Shown piece after piece: positions 4,421 through 13,704 of a DNA stretch of 64,000 nt. Source of the DNA: the human T2T-CHM13v2.0 reference genome, Homo sapiens. The stretch is from assembly GCF_009914755.1 (NCBI RefSeq), contig NC_060935.1; one strand, given 5' to 3'. The translations under genes and the position numbers were made by a program. The notes beneath the pieces were generated by a model that did no database searches, was not told where the DNA came from, and saw only the letters and a list, made by a program, of their open reading frames with translations. Position 1 is the first letter of the stretch, and each line of letters opens with the position of its first letter.

Positions 4421-4472
4421 TGTAGAGAAGAAACTCCCGAGAGAGGCTGAGGGCACACGAAACATTTCCTGC
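4421..4472 (-). CDS. P4HA3: P4HA3 exon 5 (AGNVSCALSLSREFLLY/S)
   Basis: Long T-run plus aacag|G acceptor and ACA|GTACGT donor; 52 nt keeps phase between exons 4 and 6. Confidence 0.93.
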
Positions 4473-5005
4473 CTGTTAAAAAAAAAAAAAAGAAAAGAAA
4501 GCATTAACTTCACTGAGGATATCTCTTCTGAACAAACCATTAAATTAAAAAAAAAAAAAAGATAAAATATTCTTACCATAAGTAGATAATAAGGCTCACT
4601 GAAAGGAACAGCAGACCAGAAATGCAGAGGATCTGTGGCCTCACTGCAAATCAGGTCTCACCAGTCTCCTCATTTACTAATGACTTATGACCACCCTTAC
4701 CGGGCAAGGTAGGAAAATAAATGAAAATAAACCTTCTTAAAGTGCCCTCAAATCTTTTTTTGTTTTCTGTTGAATTGTTTTTTCTTTTAATTTTATTATT
4801 ATTATACTTTAAGTTTTAGGGTACATGTGCACAACGTGCAGGTTTGTTACATATGTATACATGTGCCATGTTGGTGTGCTGCACCCATTAACTCGTCATT
4901 TAGCATTAGGTATATCTCCTAAAGCTATCCCTCCCCCCTCCCCCCACCCCACAACAGTCCCTGGTGTGTGATGTTCCCCTTCCTGTGTCCATGTGTTCTC
5001 ATTGT

Positions 5006-8845
<3,840 letters not shown>

Positions 8846-8893
8846 TTATTTTGCTCGTTAGTTGATGCAGTTTCTTCATAGCCTCGATGGTCT

Positions 8894-9909
8894 TTACAAT
8901 TTGACATGTTTTTGCAGTGGCTGGTACCAGTTGTTCCTTTCCATGTTTAGTGCTTCCTTCAGGAGCTCTTGTAGGGCAGGCCTGGTGGTGACAAAACCTC
9001 CCAGCATTTGCTTGTCTGTAAAGGATTTTATTTCTCCTTCACTTATGAAGCTTAGTTTGGCTGGATATGAGATTCTGGGTTGAAAATTCTTTTCTTTAAG
9101 AATGTTGAATATTGGTCCCCACTCTCTTCTGGCTTGTAGAGTTTCTGCTGAGAGATCAGCTGTTAGTCTAATGGGCTTCCCTTTGTGGGTAACCCGACCT
9201 TTCTCTCTGGCTGCCCTTAACATTTTTTCCTTCATTTCAACTTTGGTGAATCTGACAATTATGTGTCTTGGAGTTGCTCTTCTCGAGGAGTATCTTTGTG
9301 GCGTTCTGTGTATTTCCTGAATTTGAATGTTGGCCTGCCTTGCTAGATTGGGGAAGTTCTCCTGGATAATATCCTGCAGAGTGTTTTCCAACTTGGTTCC
9401 ATTCTCCCTGTCACTTTCAAGTACACCAATCAGACGTAGATTTGGTCTTTTCACATAGTCCCATATTTCTTGGATGCTTTGTTCGTTTCTTTTTATTCTT
9501 TTTTCTCTAAACTTCTCTCCTCGCTTCGTTTCATTCATTTCGTCTTCCATCACTGATACCCTTTCTTCCAGTTGATTGCATCGGCTACTGAGGCTTCTGC
9601 ATTCGTCACGTAGCTCTCGTGCCTTGGTTTTCAGCTCCATCAGGTCCTTTAAGGACTTCTCTGCATTGGTTATTCTAGTTATCCATTCGTCTAATTTTTT
9701 TTCAAAGCTTTTAACTTCTTTGCCATTGGTTCGAATTTCCTCCTGTAGCTCGGAGTAGTTTGATCGTCTGAAGCCTTCTTCTCTCAACTCATCAAAGTCA
9801 TTCTCCATCCAGCTTTGTTCCGTTGCTGGTGAGGAGCTCTGTTCCTTTGGAGGAGGAAAGGCACTCGATTTTTAGAGTTTCCAGTGTTTCTGCTCTGTTT
9901 TTTCCCCAT
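8894..9909 (-). pseudogene. L1 ORF1p, frameshifted near the N-terminus
   Basis: ATG at 9909; span 1016 nt (1-nt loss near 9867); the 304-aa ORF 8894-9808 matches ORF1p coiled coil, RRM and CTD. Confidence 0.92.
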
Positions 9910-12262
9910 CTTTGTGGTTTTATCTACCTTTGGTCTTTGATGATGGTGATGTACAGGTGGGTTTTGGTGTGGATGTCCTTTCTGTTTGTTAGTTTTCCTT
10001 CTAACAGACAGGACCCTCAGCTGCAGGTCTGTTGGAGTTTGCTAGAGGTCCACTCCAGACCCTGTTTGCCTGGGTATCAGCAGCAGTGGCTGCAGAACAG
10101 CAGATATTGGTGAACTGCAGATGCTGCTGCCTGATCGTTCCTCTGGAAGTTTTGTCTCAGAGGAGTACCCTGCCATGTGAGGTGTCAGTCTGCCCCTACT
10201 GGGGGGTGCCTCCTAGTTAGGCTACTCGGGGGTAAGGGACCCACTTGAGGAGGCAGTCTGCCTGTTCTCAGATCTCAAGCTGCATGCTGGAAGAACCACT
10301 ACTCTCTTCAAAGCTCAGTTGGAAATGCAGAAATCACCCGTCTTTTGTGTCACTCACGCTGGGAGCTGTAGACCGGAGCTGTTCCTATTCGGCCATCTTG
10401 GCTCCTCCCCCCGTGCCCTCAAATCTTAAAGCATGCAAAACCATGTAATTGCGGGGCGTTGTTGTTTGTTATATTTAATAATATAACTGAAGTTAAATAT
10501 ATTTAACCCAATGTGGAACTATAAAAACCCTAGTAAAAATATAATTTGTTCTCCAGATTCAGTTCTTCCCGGAGTCCACAAAGTTAGTGGAGGGAAGCAA
10601 AGAAAGAACTAAAATGGAAACATTGCCCAGTGCACAGGAATTAACTCTCCCTGCAGCCATTCAACCTTGGGCTCAACATAGTCAAAAGGAAATAGGGCTT
10701 TCCAGACAAATCTGGGGAACAGAATCCCGGATGGGTATCTAGCAGTCCTCTTCTGGGTGCTGCCAAATGATGATTAACTGATAGAAATGTATTTCATTCC
10801 AATCACTTTACTTTAGCATATTAACAATTCACTTCTAATGATAAAAGCAATAATAAGCACATTATGAAACATATGAGAAATGGAAAAAAATTACTACACC
10901 AAAATCCAGGGACTGAAGTACTTTGGATAATATATAGTTTTTACATAGTTATAAGCATATTTTTATACACTTCACATCCTGATTGTTTCACTTTACATTG
11001 TTATCAGGAGTACTTTGATGTCATCACATAGTCTTCACAGACAGCATTTTTAATGGCTGCATTTTATTCCATCCAGAAGATAGGCCACAGAGAACCTAAC
11101 CATTCCACTACTGTTGGACAAATACATTGTTTCTAATTATTTGATATCATGAATTACTCTGTTCTACATTTAACAAGGAATACTTGAGTAATCTATGAAT
11201 ATCTTGTAATGTCAAATATTAACTCAAGGTCATAGCTTTTCAAACTCTTCGTGAGATGAAAAGAACCAAAATACAATTTCACATATTTCTAAAACTTGAG
11301 AGTCTTGTAATAAAGTAAAATTATATTTTACAAAGAACAAAGAGTTACTTTCAGTGTCTCAGTTAAGTTTCTTTGGAAATAGGTACACTAAGGAACATTA
11401 AATGAAAAGAGAACATATATATGTATGTATCATGTAATAAGAACTGACATTTATCCAGTAAGTAGCATGTGCCACGCACGCATTCTGTTAAGGGCTTTGC
11501 CTGTATTAGCTCACTCAATCCTCACAGCAACCCACTTGAGGTGAGCATCATTATTCCTCTTTTACAAATAAGAAAACTGAGGCCCAGGGAAGCTAAATAA
11601 GTTGCCTATGTTTTCACAGCATTTGAATCCAGGACTGTCTGATTCCAGAGCCCATAGCTTAACCACTGTACTCTACCATCTCTCATTATTAGCAGTTATT
11701 AAAATTTTTTTTACTAAAATATATAATGAAATAAAATACATTAAATTTTATGTGATAATGAAAGGTCCACAGGGACATTTACTTCTAATTTACTAGGGGG
11801 TGAGGAGGAACACAAACCATCTATAAGATAATGCCTTATGTGTTCTGTTACTGGGGAATAAAAACATGCTGTAAGACCACCAAGGAGGAAAGCCTGGGGA
11901 GTGAGGAGAACTCAGGAAGACTTCACAAAGTAGGTGACATTCGAGGTGTGCCTTGTAACATAAACAGGATTTCACCAGACAAAACAGGATGTGGAAAGCA
12001 AGTAGAAGAGAAATCCAAGCCATCAGAGTTAGAGGGAAACAAAACAAAACTAATCAATAATTGGGTACAACATTTGAAACTCCGTCTTTCAGGGTAAGCT
12101 GCTTTAGTTTCTCTTCTCTGAGTCTTTCCATGTCGAATCTCCATTTCCTTCCTCTATTAAAACTCAATTACTTCTCACCCCTTCCTACATCACAGTTACT
12201 CTGTTTGGCTTTAACACACAGCAATTTAGCAGGAGAGTTAGGAAGAGCACATACACAGTTTT

Positions 12263-13554: not shown

Positions 13555-13704
13555 CCGGAAATAAGCAAAGGCCAAGTGATCCAAGGCATCTTCTAGACTT
13601 GCCTCATCCTCTGTCTTCCACTCTCCGTAAGATCCTCGGAAGAGACTGACAGCCTCCTCCAGCCATGGAATGGCATGGTAATAATCCCCCATGTCATAGG
13701 CCAC
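13555..13704 (-). CDS. P4HA3: P4HA3 exon 4 (VAYDMGDYYHAIPWLEEAVSLF...LDHLAFAYFR), TPR-like substrate-binding domain
   Basis: Read manually (not in the ORF track): gtgtag|G acceptor, CGG|GTAAGG donor, 150 nt, open frame. Confidence 0.95.

What the first reader, a model, noticed from the sequence alone, without database searches (positions are those of the whole stretch)
10290..10412. The intronic L1 is a spliced retrocopy of itself (SpIRE 97/622 type)
Seen: the element has an intact 5' end, an A-tail and a 15-bp TSD, yet is only ~5.65 kb. On the minus strand, ...TTTCTGCATTTCCAACTGAG is joined directly to CTTTGAAGAGAGTAGTGG... at 10314/10313, 99 nt from the 5' end. Known: in L1 consensus the first part is followed by the donor GTACC (~nt 97/98) and the second is preceded by the acceptor ...GTCTGACAG (~nt 621). 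Removal of this ~524-nt intron defines SpIRE97/622 (Larson et al. 2018). Inference: the L1 RNA was spliced before reverse transcription, so this copy lost most of its sense promoter and the antisense-promoter/ORF0 region and was probably dead on arrival, while keeping the 5' YY1 site (CAAGATGGCCG).
Basis: partly seen in the sequence, partly recalled or inferred. Interest (0 to 1): 0.8.

Follow-up and report, generated by a model that had tools for sequence, protein, structure and literature searches.

The report
Spliced L1 retrocopy in P4HA3 intron
An old LINE-1 copy inside a P4HA3 intron was made from an L1 RNA that had spliced out about 530 bases of its own leader, which is a known kind of crippled L1 copy, though this one is missing from the published list.

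Summary
A minus-strand L1 (window 4757-10412, 5656 nt) has a 15/15 target-site duplication, a degenerate A-tail and an intact 5' end. At 10314/10313, 99 nt from that end, ...CCAACTGAG is joined directly to CTTTGAAGAGAG.

I compared it with 28 unspliced L1 relatives from the same genome. All 28 show one large gap at this exact position, 511-533 nt long (398 in one). The missing piece starts with GT in 27 of 28 and ends with AG in 28 of 28.

The same 27-nt junction (up to 2 mismatches) occurs at 181 places in the genome, against 0 for a reversed control. On a tree, spliced copies are mixed among unspliced ones, so the event recurs at the RNA level.

This is a SpIRE97/622 as defined by Larson et al. 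2018. Its nearest labelled relatives are L1PA4. It is not in their S1 Table or S1 Data.

Both flanks and the upstream P4HA3 exon are single-copy, so there is no sign of duplication or progeny. ORF1 and ORF2 are now broken.

Ape orthologues could not be checked. This is a correct call of a known kind, of low to moderate interest.

The parts
10413..10427 (-). 5' copy of the 15-bp target-site duplication AAGATTTGAGGGCAC
   Evidence: It is identical to the 3' copy seen.
10314..10412 (-). L1 5'UTR 'exon 1': L1.3 nt 1-97 equivalent, 99 nt here. It has one extra 5' G and includes the YY1-type motif CAAGATGGCCG at 10400-10390.
   Evidence: It is 96-99% identical to the first 99 nt of 39 other genomic L1 copies.
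10313..10314 (-). Splice junction ...CTGAG|CTTTGAAG. Placement is ambiguous by 2 nt because both the upstream exon and the intron end in AG.
   Evidence: Unspliced relatives have GT...AG between these two bases.
9910..10313 (-). Remaining 5'UTR downstream of the acceptor (L1.3 nt 622 onward). The total 5'UTR is 503 nt.
   Evidence: The ORF1 ATG is at 9909.
10039..10166 (-). 128-nt segment present in older L1PA copies and absent from 17 of the 28 unspliced relatives examined. It corresponds to the 129-bp ZNF93-site region described by Larson et al.
   Evidence: gap of 128 nt after L1 position 246. for the published description.
8894..9909 (-). ORF1, 1016 nt, one base short of 339 codons. It is frameshifted near its start and open for 304 aa from an internal ATG at 9808.
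   Evidence: Pfam finds Transposase_22, Tnp_22_dsRBD and Tnp_22_trimer.
7112..8830 (-). First open piece of ORF2 (572 aa): the endonuclease domain and the start of the reverse transcriptase domain. A 63-nt spacer (8831-8893) precedes it.
   Evidence: Pfam finds Exo_endo_phos and RVT_1.
4800..7111 (-). Rest of ORF2, broken into pieces (168-aa and 247-aa open stretches), plus the 3'UTR.
   Evidence: The two later pieces gave no Pfam match.
4757..4790 (-). Degenerate A-rich tail
4742..4756 (-). 3' copy of the target-site duplication. The inferred bottom-strand endonuclease site is TCTT/A.
   Evidence: The site is inferred from the flanks. TCTT/A is frequent in the paper's S1 Table.

Best explanation
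An L1PA4-type source element was transcribed from its own promoter, starting at L1 nt 1. The RNA was spliced by the host spliceosome from the weak donor at L1.3 nt 98 (CTGAG|GTACC) to the acceptor at nt 621 (...TCTGACAG|CTTTG). This removed about 530 nt of the 5'UTR. The spliced RNA was then copied by target-primed reverse transcription into a TCTT/A site in what is now a P4HA3 intron, in the same orientation as the gene. That produced a 15-bp TSD and an A-tail.

The copy keeps nt 1-97 with the YY1-type motif. It lacks the donor/RUNX3 region, most of the sense promoter, and the region that holds an antisense ORF in unspliced copies. It therefore most likely never served as a source element. 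It has since decayed: ORF1 is frameshifted and ORF2 is interrupted.

Shown: the anatomy, the GT/AG coincidence, the recurrence of the junction, and the single-copy flanks. Inferred: splicing as the cause, the weak promoter, the age (roughly 12-20 Myr), and fixation.
For: - The junction and TPRT hallmarks are read directly from the sequence.
- In 28 unspliced relatives, GT follows the first part in 27 of 28 and AG precedes the second in 28 of 28. One large gap of 511-533 nt (398 in one) sits at the same position in 28 of 28.
- The identical junction lies at other loci. 30 of the 31 spliced loci fetched are elsewhere in the genome. The junction pattern has 181 places against 0 for the control.
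- On a tree of 31 spliced and 28 unspliced copies, the spliced label needs 17 changes. The shuffled mean is 19.8, and 66 of 500 shuffles are as low. Starred branches force at least 5 changes. The deletion is therefore recurrent and not a subfamily trait.
- Of the 24 nearest relatives over the 1400 nt downstream of the junction, 21 are unspliced and 3 are spliced (with for status).
- The 5' end begins at L1 nt 1 plus one G, with no transduced host sequence.
- The published definition and functional data come from PMC5860796 (sections read).
- An antisense ATG-ORF starting at about L1 position 440-455 lies wholly inside the removed piece in 17 of 28 unspliced copies. It is 71 aa in 6 of them.
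Against: - No orthologous or empty site from another primate could be examined, so a later deletion at this one locus is excluded only by argument.
- The boundaries are ambiguous by 2 nt (AG/AG). This also fits a deletion between tiny repeats.
- Larson et al. did not detect the 97/622 splice by RT-PCR or northern blot from L1.3 constructs in HeLa cells. The splice is inferred from genomic copies, not seen as RNA.
- The element is absent from their list of 116.
- The loci used for the tree were picked by similarity to the window, not at random, and most tree branches are weakly supported (36 of 56 inner branches drawn open).
Confidence: 0.92

Rival explanations
1. This copy is the daughter of an already spliced L1 (a SpIRE that was itself transcribed), rather than the product of a fresh splicing event on RNA from an unspliced source.
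For: - The single nearest relative over the 1400 nt downstream of the junction is a spliced copy (chr18, SpIRE97/622-112, 96%).
- 3 of the 24 nearest relatives are spliced. The paper reports about 1.8% of full-length L1PA1-6.
- The window groups at SH-aLRT 89 with two spliced copies and one unspliced copy.
- A preprint reports that the RAP1GDS1 intronic SpIRE produced progeny through the host promoter (10.1101/2025.02.02.635956, passages seen).
- SpIRE97/622 constructs keep about 7% retrotransposition activity.
Against: - The window shares no rare base with any one spliced copy more than once. There are 4 rare shared columns, each with a different partner, one of them unspliced.
- The group in the tree is an unresolved polytomy that includes the unspliced L032.
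- Many unspliced copies are at 95% identity, barely below the best spliced one.
- The 5' end starts at L1 nt 1 with no host exon or flank. The RAP1GDS1 progeny were linked to that source by splicing from a host exon.
- The candidate pre-filter of the search is not a random sample.
Confidence: 0.06
2. The element inserted as an ordinary full-length L1, and about 530 bp was deleted later from the genomic DNA at this locus.
For: The 2-nt AG repeat at the two break points would allow a microhomology-mediated deletion. No outgroup locus was examined.
Against: - The break points fall exactly on GT...AG with an upstream pyrimidine-rich stretch.
- The identical break recurs at 181 places, against 0 for the control.
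- It recurs across different subfamily types on the tree. Independent DNA deletions would not do this.
Confidence: 0.015
3. The locus is a copy of another SpIRE made by segmental duplication or gene conversion, or is an assembly artefact.
For: Some SpIRE copies are duplicated with their surroundings. Three near-identical chr1 copies (L014, L015, L024) sit in the same part of the tree, and L015 and L024 pair directly there.
Against: The 188 nt of 5' flank, the 182 nt of 3' flank and the upstream P4HA3 exon each match only this locus in the genome. The element has its own perfect TSD.
Confidence: 0.005

Closest known systems
SpIRE97/622 (Larson et al. 2018, PLoS Biol, PMC5860796)
   Same: It has the same donor (G98U99) and acceptor (A620G621), the same exact exon-exon junction sequence, and the same TPRT hallmarks. 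Its subfamily falls within the L1PA1-PA6 range. Like 51 of their 131 elements, it is intronic.
   Different: It is not among the 116 listed copies. The removed piece in its closest relatives is 528-533 nt rather than 524. It lies in the same orientation as its host gene, which is the minority case in the paper (32 of 51 intronic SpIREs are opposite).
SpIRE97/853, SpIRE97/790 and SpIRE97/976 (same paper; Belancio et al., as cited there)
   Same: Same donor, and the same principle of a retrotransposed spliced L1 RNA.
   Different: They use other acceptors. The window's element keeps the 128-nt segment that holds the 853 acceptor, yet it used the upstream 622 acceptor. ORF1's start is retained, unlike in 97/976.
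RAP1GDS1 intronic SpIRE (SpIRE97/622-35) that co-opted its host promoter (bioRxiv 10.1101/2025.02.02.635956, passages only)
   Same: It is an intronic SpIRE97/622 in the same orientation as its host gene.
   Different: Progeny were reported for that element. Here, no second copy of the 5' flank, the upstream P4HA3 exon or the 3' flank exists in the genome.
Processed pseudogenes
   Same: Intron loss through L1-mediated reverse transcription of a spliced RNA, with a TSD and an A-tail.
   Different: The template here is L1's own RNA acting in cis, and the 'intron' is a cryptic one inside its promoter/5'UTR.

Membership tests
SpIRE97/622 | The 5' edge of the missing 5'UTR piece lies at the donor G98U99 (exon ends ...CTGAG, next bases GT in unspliced L1). 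| tested here: met
   GT in 27 of 28 unspliced relatives, and the gap is at the same position in 28 of 28.
SpIRE97/622 | The 3' edge lies at the acceptor A620G621 (...TCTGACAG|CTTTGAAGAG). | tested here: met
   AG in 28 of 28. The window resumes at CTTTGAAGAG.
SpIRE97/622 | Clean exon-exon join without filler bases, shared with listed SpIREs. | tested here: met
   the 28-nt string printed around the join (14 nt each side) is identical to the window's in 11 other spliced loci (L004, L005, L007, L009-L012, L019, L022, L029; L031 is the window refetched). Three of these, or close matches, are confirmed as listed clones: L005 = -95 and L007 = -112 share the string exactly, and L006 = -33 differs by one base.
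SpIRE97/622 | Insertion by endonuclease-dependent TPRT: TSD, 3' A-tract and a TTTT/A-like site. | tested here: met
   15-bp TSD (15 of 15), degenerate A-tail, inferred TCTT/A site.
SpIRE97/622 | Belongs to L1PA1-L1PA6. | tested here: inconclusive
   The nearest labelled copies are L1PA4, and the window carries the older-type 128-nt segment. No curated subfamily reference or RepeatMasker run was available. The end branch of 0.027 fits an L1PA3-PA5 age; published subfamily ages are recalled, not looked up.
SpIRE97/622 | The junction was present at insertion, meaning all orthologues carry it and none has an intact 5'UTR. | not testable with these tools
   No other primate genome is held.
SpIRE97/622 | Reduced promoter activity and reduced retrotransposition. 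| not testable with these tools
   Only published L1.3-based assays are available.
Published SpIRE catalogue (S1 Table / S1 Data of PMC5860796) | The locus is listed. | tested here: not met
   'P4HA3' has 0 occurrences. The six chr11 SpIRE97/622 entries lie at 13.8, 26.3, 29.4, 48.6, 87.9 and 100.7 Mb. The TSD and 5'-flank strings have 0 occurrences, whereas the flanks of three listed copies were found the same way.

The most novel reading that the evidence does not exclude
The window's copy and its nearest spliced relatives (the chr18 copy listed as SpIRE97/622-112 and an unlisted chr2 copy) might descend from a spliced L1PA4 master that stayed weakly active. In that case some SpIRE97/622 elements were not dead ends but a small self-propagating lineage. 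Separately, the 181 junction-bearing places in T2T-CHM13 against 116 listed for hg38 suggest that the census of such copies is an undercount.
Probability: 0.06. Interest if true: 0.5.

Novelty: new member of a known kind. Interest (0 to 1): 0.25.

Why it matters
This adds one well-preserved example, and by extension several more, to a known class that records how host splicing cripples L1. It shows that the published catalogue is incomplete. It also gives a clean case of a SpIRE in the same orientation as its host gene and without detectable progeny, in contrast to the RAP1GDS1 element. It does not change the understanding of L1 biology or of P4HA3.

Tried and rejected
- MAFFT multiple alignment of the window against six unspliced copies misplaced the first 99 nt. 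I replaced it with pairwise global alignment using cheap gap extension.
- The first attempt to search the supplements with 'chr11:74' failed on syntax and was re-sent without the colon.
- I tested whether the stated '>95% identity to the L1.3 probe' rule explains why this copy is not listed. Young PA2-type junction 100-mers from stored loci served as a stand-in for the probe. The window scores 91-92 of 100, but listed copies L007 (89-90), L005 and L006 (92-93) score no better. The rule does not explain the omission, and the reason remains unknown.
- I looked for progeny or duplication by searching for the flanks and the upstream exon. None was found.
- I looked for rare variants shared with particular spliced copies. 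None was shared more than once.
Twenty 74-nt stretches were fetched instead.

Full report
**What is there**

Read on the minus strand, the stretch 10427-4742 is a complete L1 insertion. It consists of:
- a 15-bp target-site duplication, AAGATTTGAGGGCAC, at 10427-10413 and 4756-4742 (15 of 15 identical);
- an L1 5' end at 10412 (six G, then AGGAGCCAAGATGGCCG, which is one G more than most relatives show);
- a 3' end with a degenerate A-rich tail (about 4757-4790).

The flanks imply a bottom-strand cleavage site of TCTT/A. That variant is common in the published SpIRE table. The element is 5656 nt long.

The coding parts are L1. ORF1 (9909-8894) is one base short of 339 codons. It is open for 304 aa from an internal ATG and carries the three L1 ORF1 Pfam domains. 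ORF2 starts 63 nt after the ORF1 stop, at 8830. It is open for 572 aa (endonuclease and the start of the reverse transcriptase) and is then interrupted.

The element lies in the P4HA3 intron between the exons at 4421-4472 and 13555-13704, in the same orientation as the gene (hub annotation).

**Is the join at the splice sites?**

No L1 reference sequence was available from any tool, so I used the genome itself. A search of the window's own assembly with the first 99 nt returned 40 scored places, of which 30 were fetched. Of the 29 that are not the window itself, 28 carry extra sequence between the two parts and one (L047) is spliced.

In the 28 unspliced copies:
- ...CTGAG is followed by GT in 27 (AT in one; mostly GTACC);
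- CTTTGAAGAG is preceded by AG in all 28, after a pyrimidine-rich ...TGTCCCTSTCTGACAG.

Pairwise global alignment of the window's first 1000 nt to each of the 28 gives one large gap at the same position in all 28. The gap is 511-533 nt long, or 398 in one copy with an internal deletion. Everything else is small indels, apart from the 128-nt segment discussed below.

The aligner places the gap after position 97 rather than 99. This is because both the upstream part and the missing piece end in AG, so the break is ambiguous by 2 nt. One of the three placements is the canonical GT...AG.

In the closest relatives, which share the window's CCAACTGAG/GAGAGTA bases and the 128-nt segment, the missing piece is 528-533 nt. 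The published figure of 524 applies to L1.3.

**Is it recurrent, and at what level?**

A 200-nt probe across the junction found 40 scored places that match contiguously at 90-100% identity. The 30 loci fetched all show the same join, and 29 of them lie at other loci.

A 27-nt junction pattern with up to 2 mismatches has 181 places in the genome (96 forward, 85 reverse). The reversed control has none. Of the 100 exact matches listed, I count 44 with the older-type CCAACTGAG and 56 with CCATCTGAG.

I built a maximum-likelihood tree of 31 spliced and 28 unspliced copies, using the first 99 nt plus 900 nt downstream of the acceptor with the intron columns excluded. The spliced state is not clustered on it:
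- it needs 17 changes, against a shuffled mean of 19.8;
- 66 of 500 shuffles are as low;
- at least 5 changes are forced by well-supported branches.

Caveats apply. The rows were chosen by similarity to the window, support is SH-aLRT only, and 36 of 56 inner branches are weak.

The same break therefore arose repeatedly in different L1 lineages. This fits splicing of the RNA. It does not fit DNA deletion or a subfamily-specific 5'UTR.

**Identity with the published class**

Larson et al. 2018 (PMC5860796; abstract, Results sections 6-9, 11, 14 and 16, Discussion part 1 of 2, Methods section 21, S1 Table in full, and S1 Data by string search) define SpIRE97/622. It is an L1 that lacks the 524 nt between donor G98U99 and acceptor A620G621, and it carries TSDs, an A-tract and an endonuclease-type site. 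They report 116 copies in hg38, spanning L1PA1 to L1PA6. The window's element meets each structural criterion.

The subfamily could not be assigned with a curated reference. The evidence available is this:
- The nearest spliced relatives are clones the paper labels PA4. L007 is -112, L006 is -33 and L005 is -95, each confirmed by finding its flank in S1 Data.
- The window keeps the 128-nt segment at 10039-10166 that 17 of the 28 unspliced relatives lack. This corresponds to the 129-bp ZNF93-site region that the paper says was lost between L1PA3 and L1PA2/L1PA1.
- The window's end branch is 0.027 substitutions per site, against a median of 0.036.
- Identity to the best relatives over 1400 nt is 95-96%.

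With substitution rates recalled from the L1 literature (about 0.17% per Myr), this points to very roughly 12-20 Myr. That is an inference, not a measurement.

**Not in the catalogue**

- 'P4HA3' does not occur in the supplements.
- The six chr11 SpIRE97/622 rows of S1 Table lie at 13.8, 26.3, 29.4, 48.6, 87.9 and 100.7 Mb. The only chr11 entry near 74 Mb is a SpIRE97/790 in RNF169.
- The window's TSD and 5'-flank strings have 0 occurrences in S1 Data. The flanks of three listed copies were found by the same method.
- The flanks of five other spliced loci (L002, L003, L011, L021, L023) are also absent.

An exact-string search can miss a locus that differs by a SNP between assemblies, so each of these is 'probably unlisted'. 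For the window, three independent checks agree.

The paper's stated >95% identity cut-off to an L1.3 probe does not explain the omission. Listed copies score no better than the window against young-type junctions.

**How this copy arose, and what it could do**

The 5' end sits at L1 nt 1 with one extra G and no host sequence. The template RNA therefore started at the normal L1 start site.

Of the 24 nearest relatives over the 1400 nt downstream of the junction, 21 are unspliced and 3 are spliced. The window shares no rare base more than once with any particular spliced copy. The simplest reading is a fresh splicing event on RNA from an unspliced L1PA4-type source. Descent from a spliced master is not excluded, and I put it at about 6%.

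The removed piece contains, in unspliced relatives, an antisense ATG-ORF starting near position 440-455 in 17 of 28 copies. It is 71 aa in 6 of them. From recall, this matches ORF0 of Denli et al. 2015, which the paper cites.

According to Larson et al., the removed piece also holds five transcription-factor sites, and the donor sits in the RUNX3 site. Their L1.3-based SpIRE97/622 5'UTR gave about 7-fold luciferase over a promoterless vector, against about 267-fold for wild type. It gave about 7% of wild-type retrotransposition without an added promoter. 'Dead on arrival' is thus a reasonable but indirect inference for this older element.

A preprint reports that a same-orientation intronic SpIRE in RAP1GDS1 escaped this fate by using its host's promoter (passages only). 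I tested the analogous idea here. The 188 nt upstream, the upstream P4HA3 exon and the 182 nt downstream each occur only once in the genome. There is therefore no transduced or exon-fused progeny, and no segmental duplication.

**What speaks against the reading**

- No primate orthologue could be examined.
- The 2-nt ambiguity allows a microhomology deletion in principle.
- The 97/622 splice was not detected as RNA in the paper's HeLa assays.

**Verdict**

This is a new, unlisted member of a known class. It is of modest interest in itself, with a side result that the published census appears incomplete.

Noticed in passing
Genome-wide; loci L002, L003, L011, L021, L023: The 27-nt SpIRE97/622 junction pattern (up to 2 mismatches) has 181 places in this assembly, against 116 copies listed for hg38 by Larson et al. 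The 5' flanks of five further spliced loci, besides the window's, are absent from their S1 Data. Some of the excess will be segmental duplicates, fragments or sequence new to this assembly.
   Followed up: partly
L014 (C1:121324093-121324297), L015 (C1:205597319-205597523), L024 (C1:144089893-144090096): Three near-identical young-type spliced copies on chromosome 1 sit in the same part of the tree, and L015 and L024 pair directly with very short branches (0.004-0.006; L014 0.018). This looks like one insertion carried along by segmental duplication. The paper lists one such copy, in SRGAP2B.
   Followed up: partly
L037 (C8:129471319-129471417 region): This unspliced L1 copy has AT instead of GT at the donor position. 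It is the only one of the 28 examined.
   Followed up: no
L075, L077, L080 (74-nt stretches): In these unspliced relatives the acceptor region is altered. L075 and L077 have small deletions that remove or shorten ...CTCTGACAG, and L080 has GATAG. They show decay of the acceptor after insertion.
   Followed up: no
L005 (C12:11183918-11184114): This copy is listed in the paper as SpIRE97/622-95 on an hg38 alternate contig (chr12_KI270904v1_alt). In this assembly it lies on the main chromosome 12.
   Followed up: no
window 4757-10412 relative to P4HA3: [quoted passage not shown] That is the minority arrangement for intronic SpIREs in the paper (19 of 51). No annotated P4HA3 transcript uses it.
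   Followed up: partly
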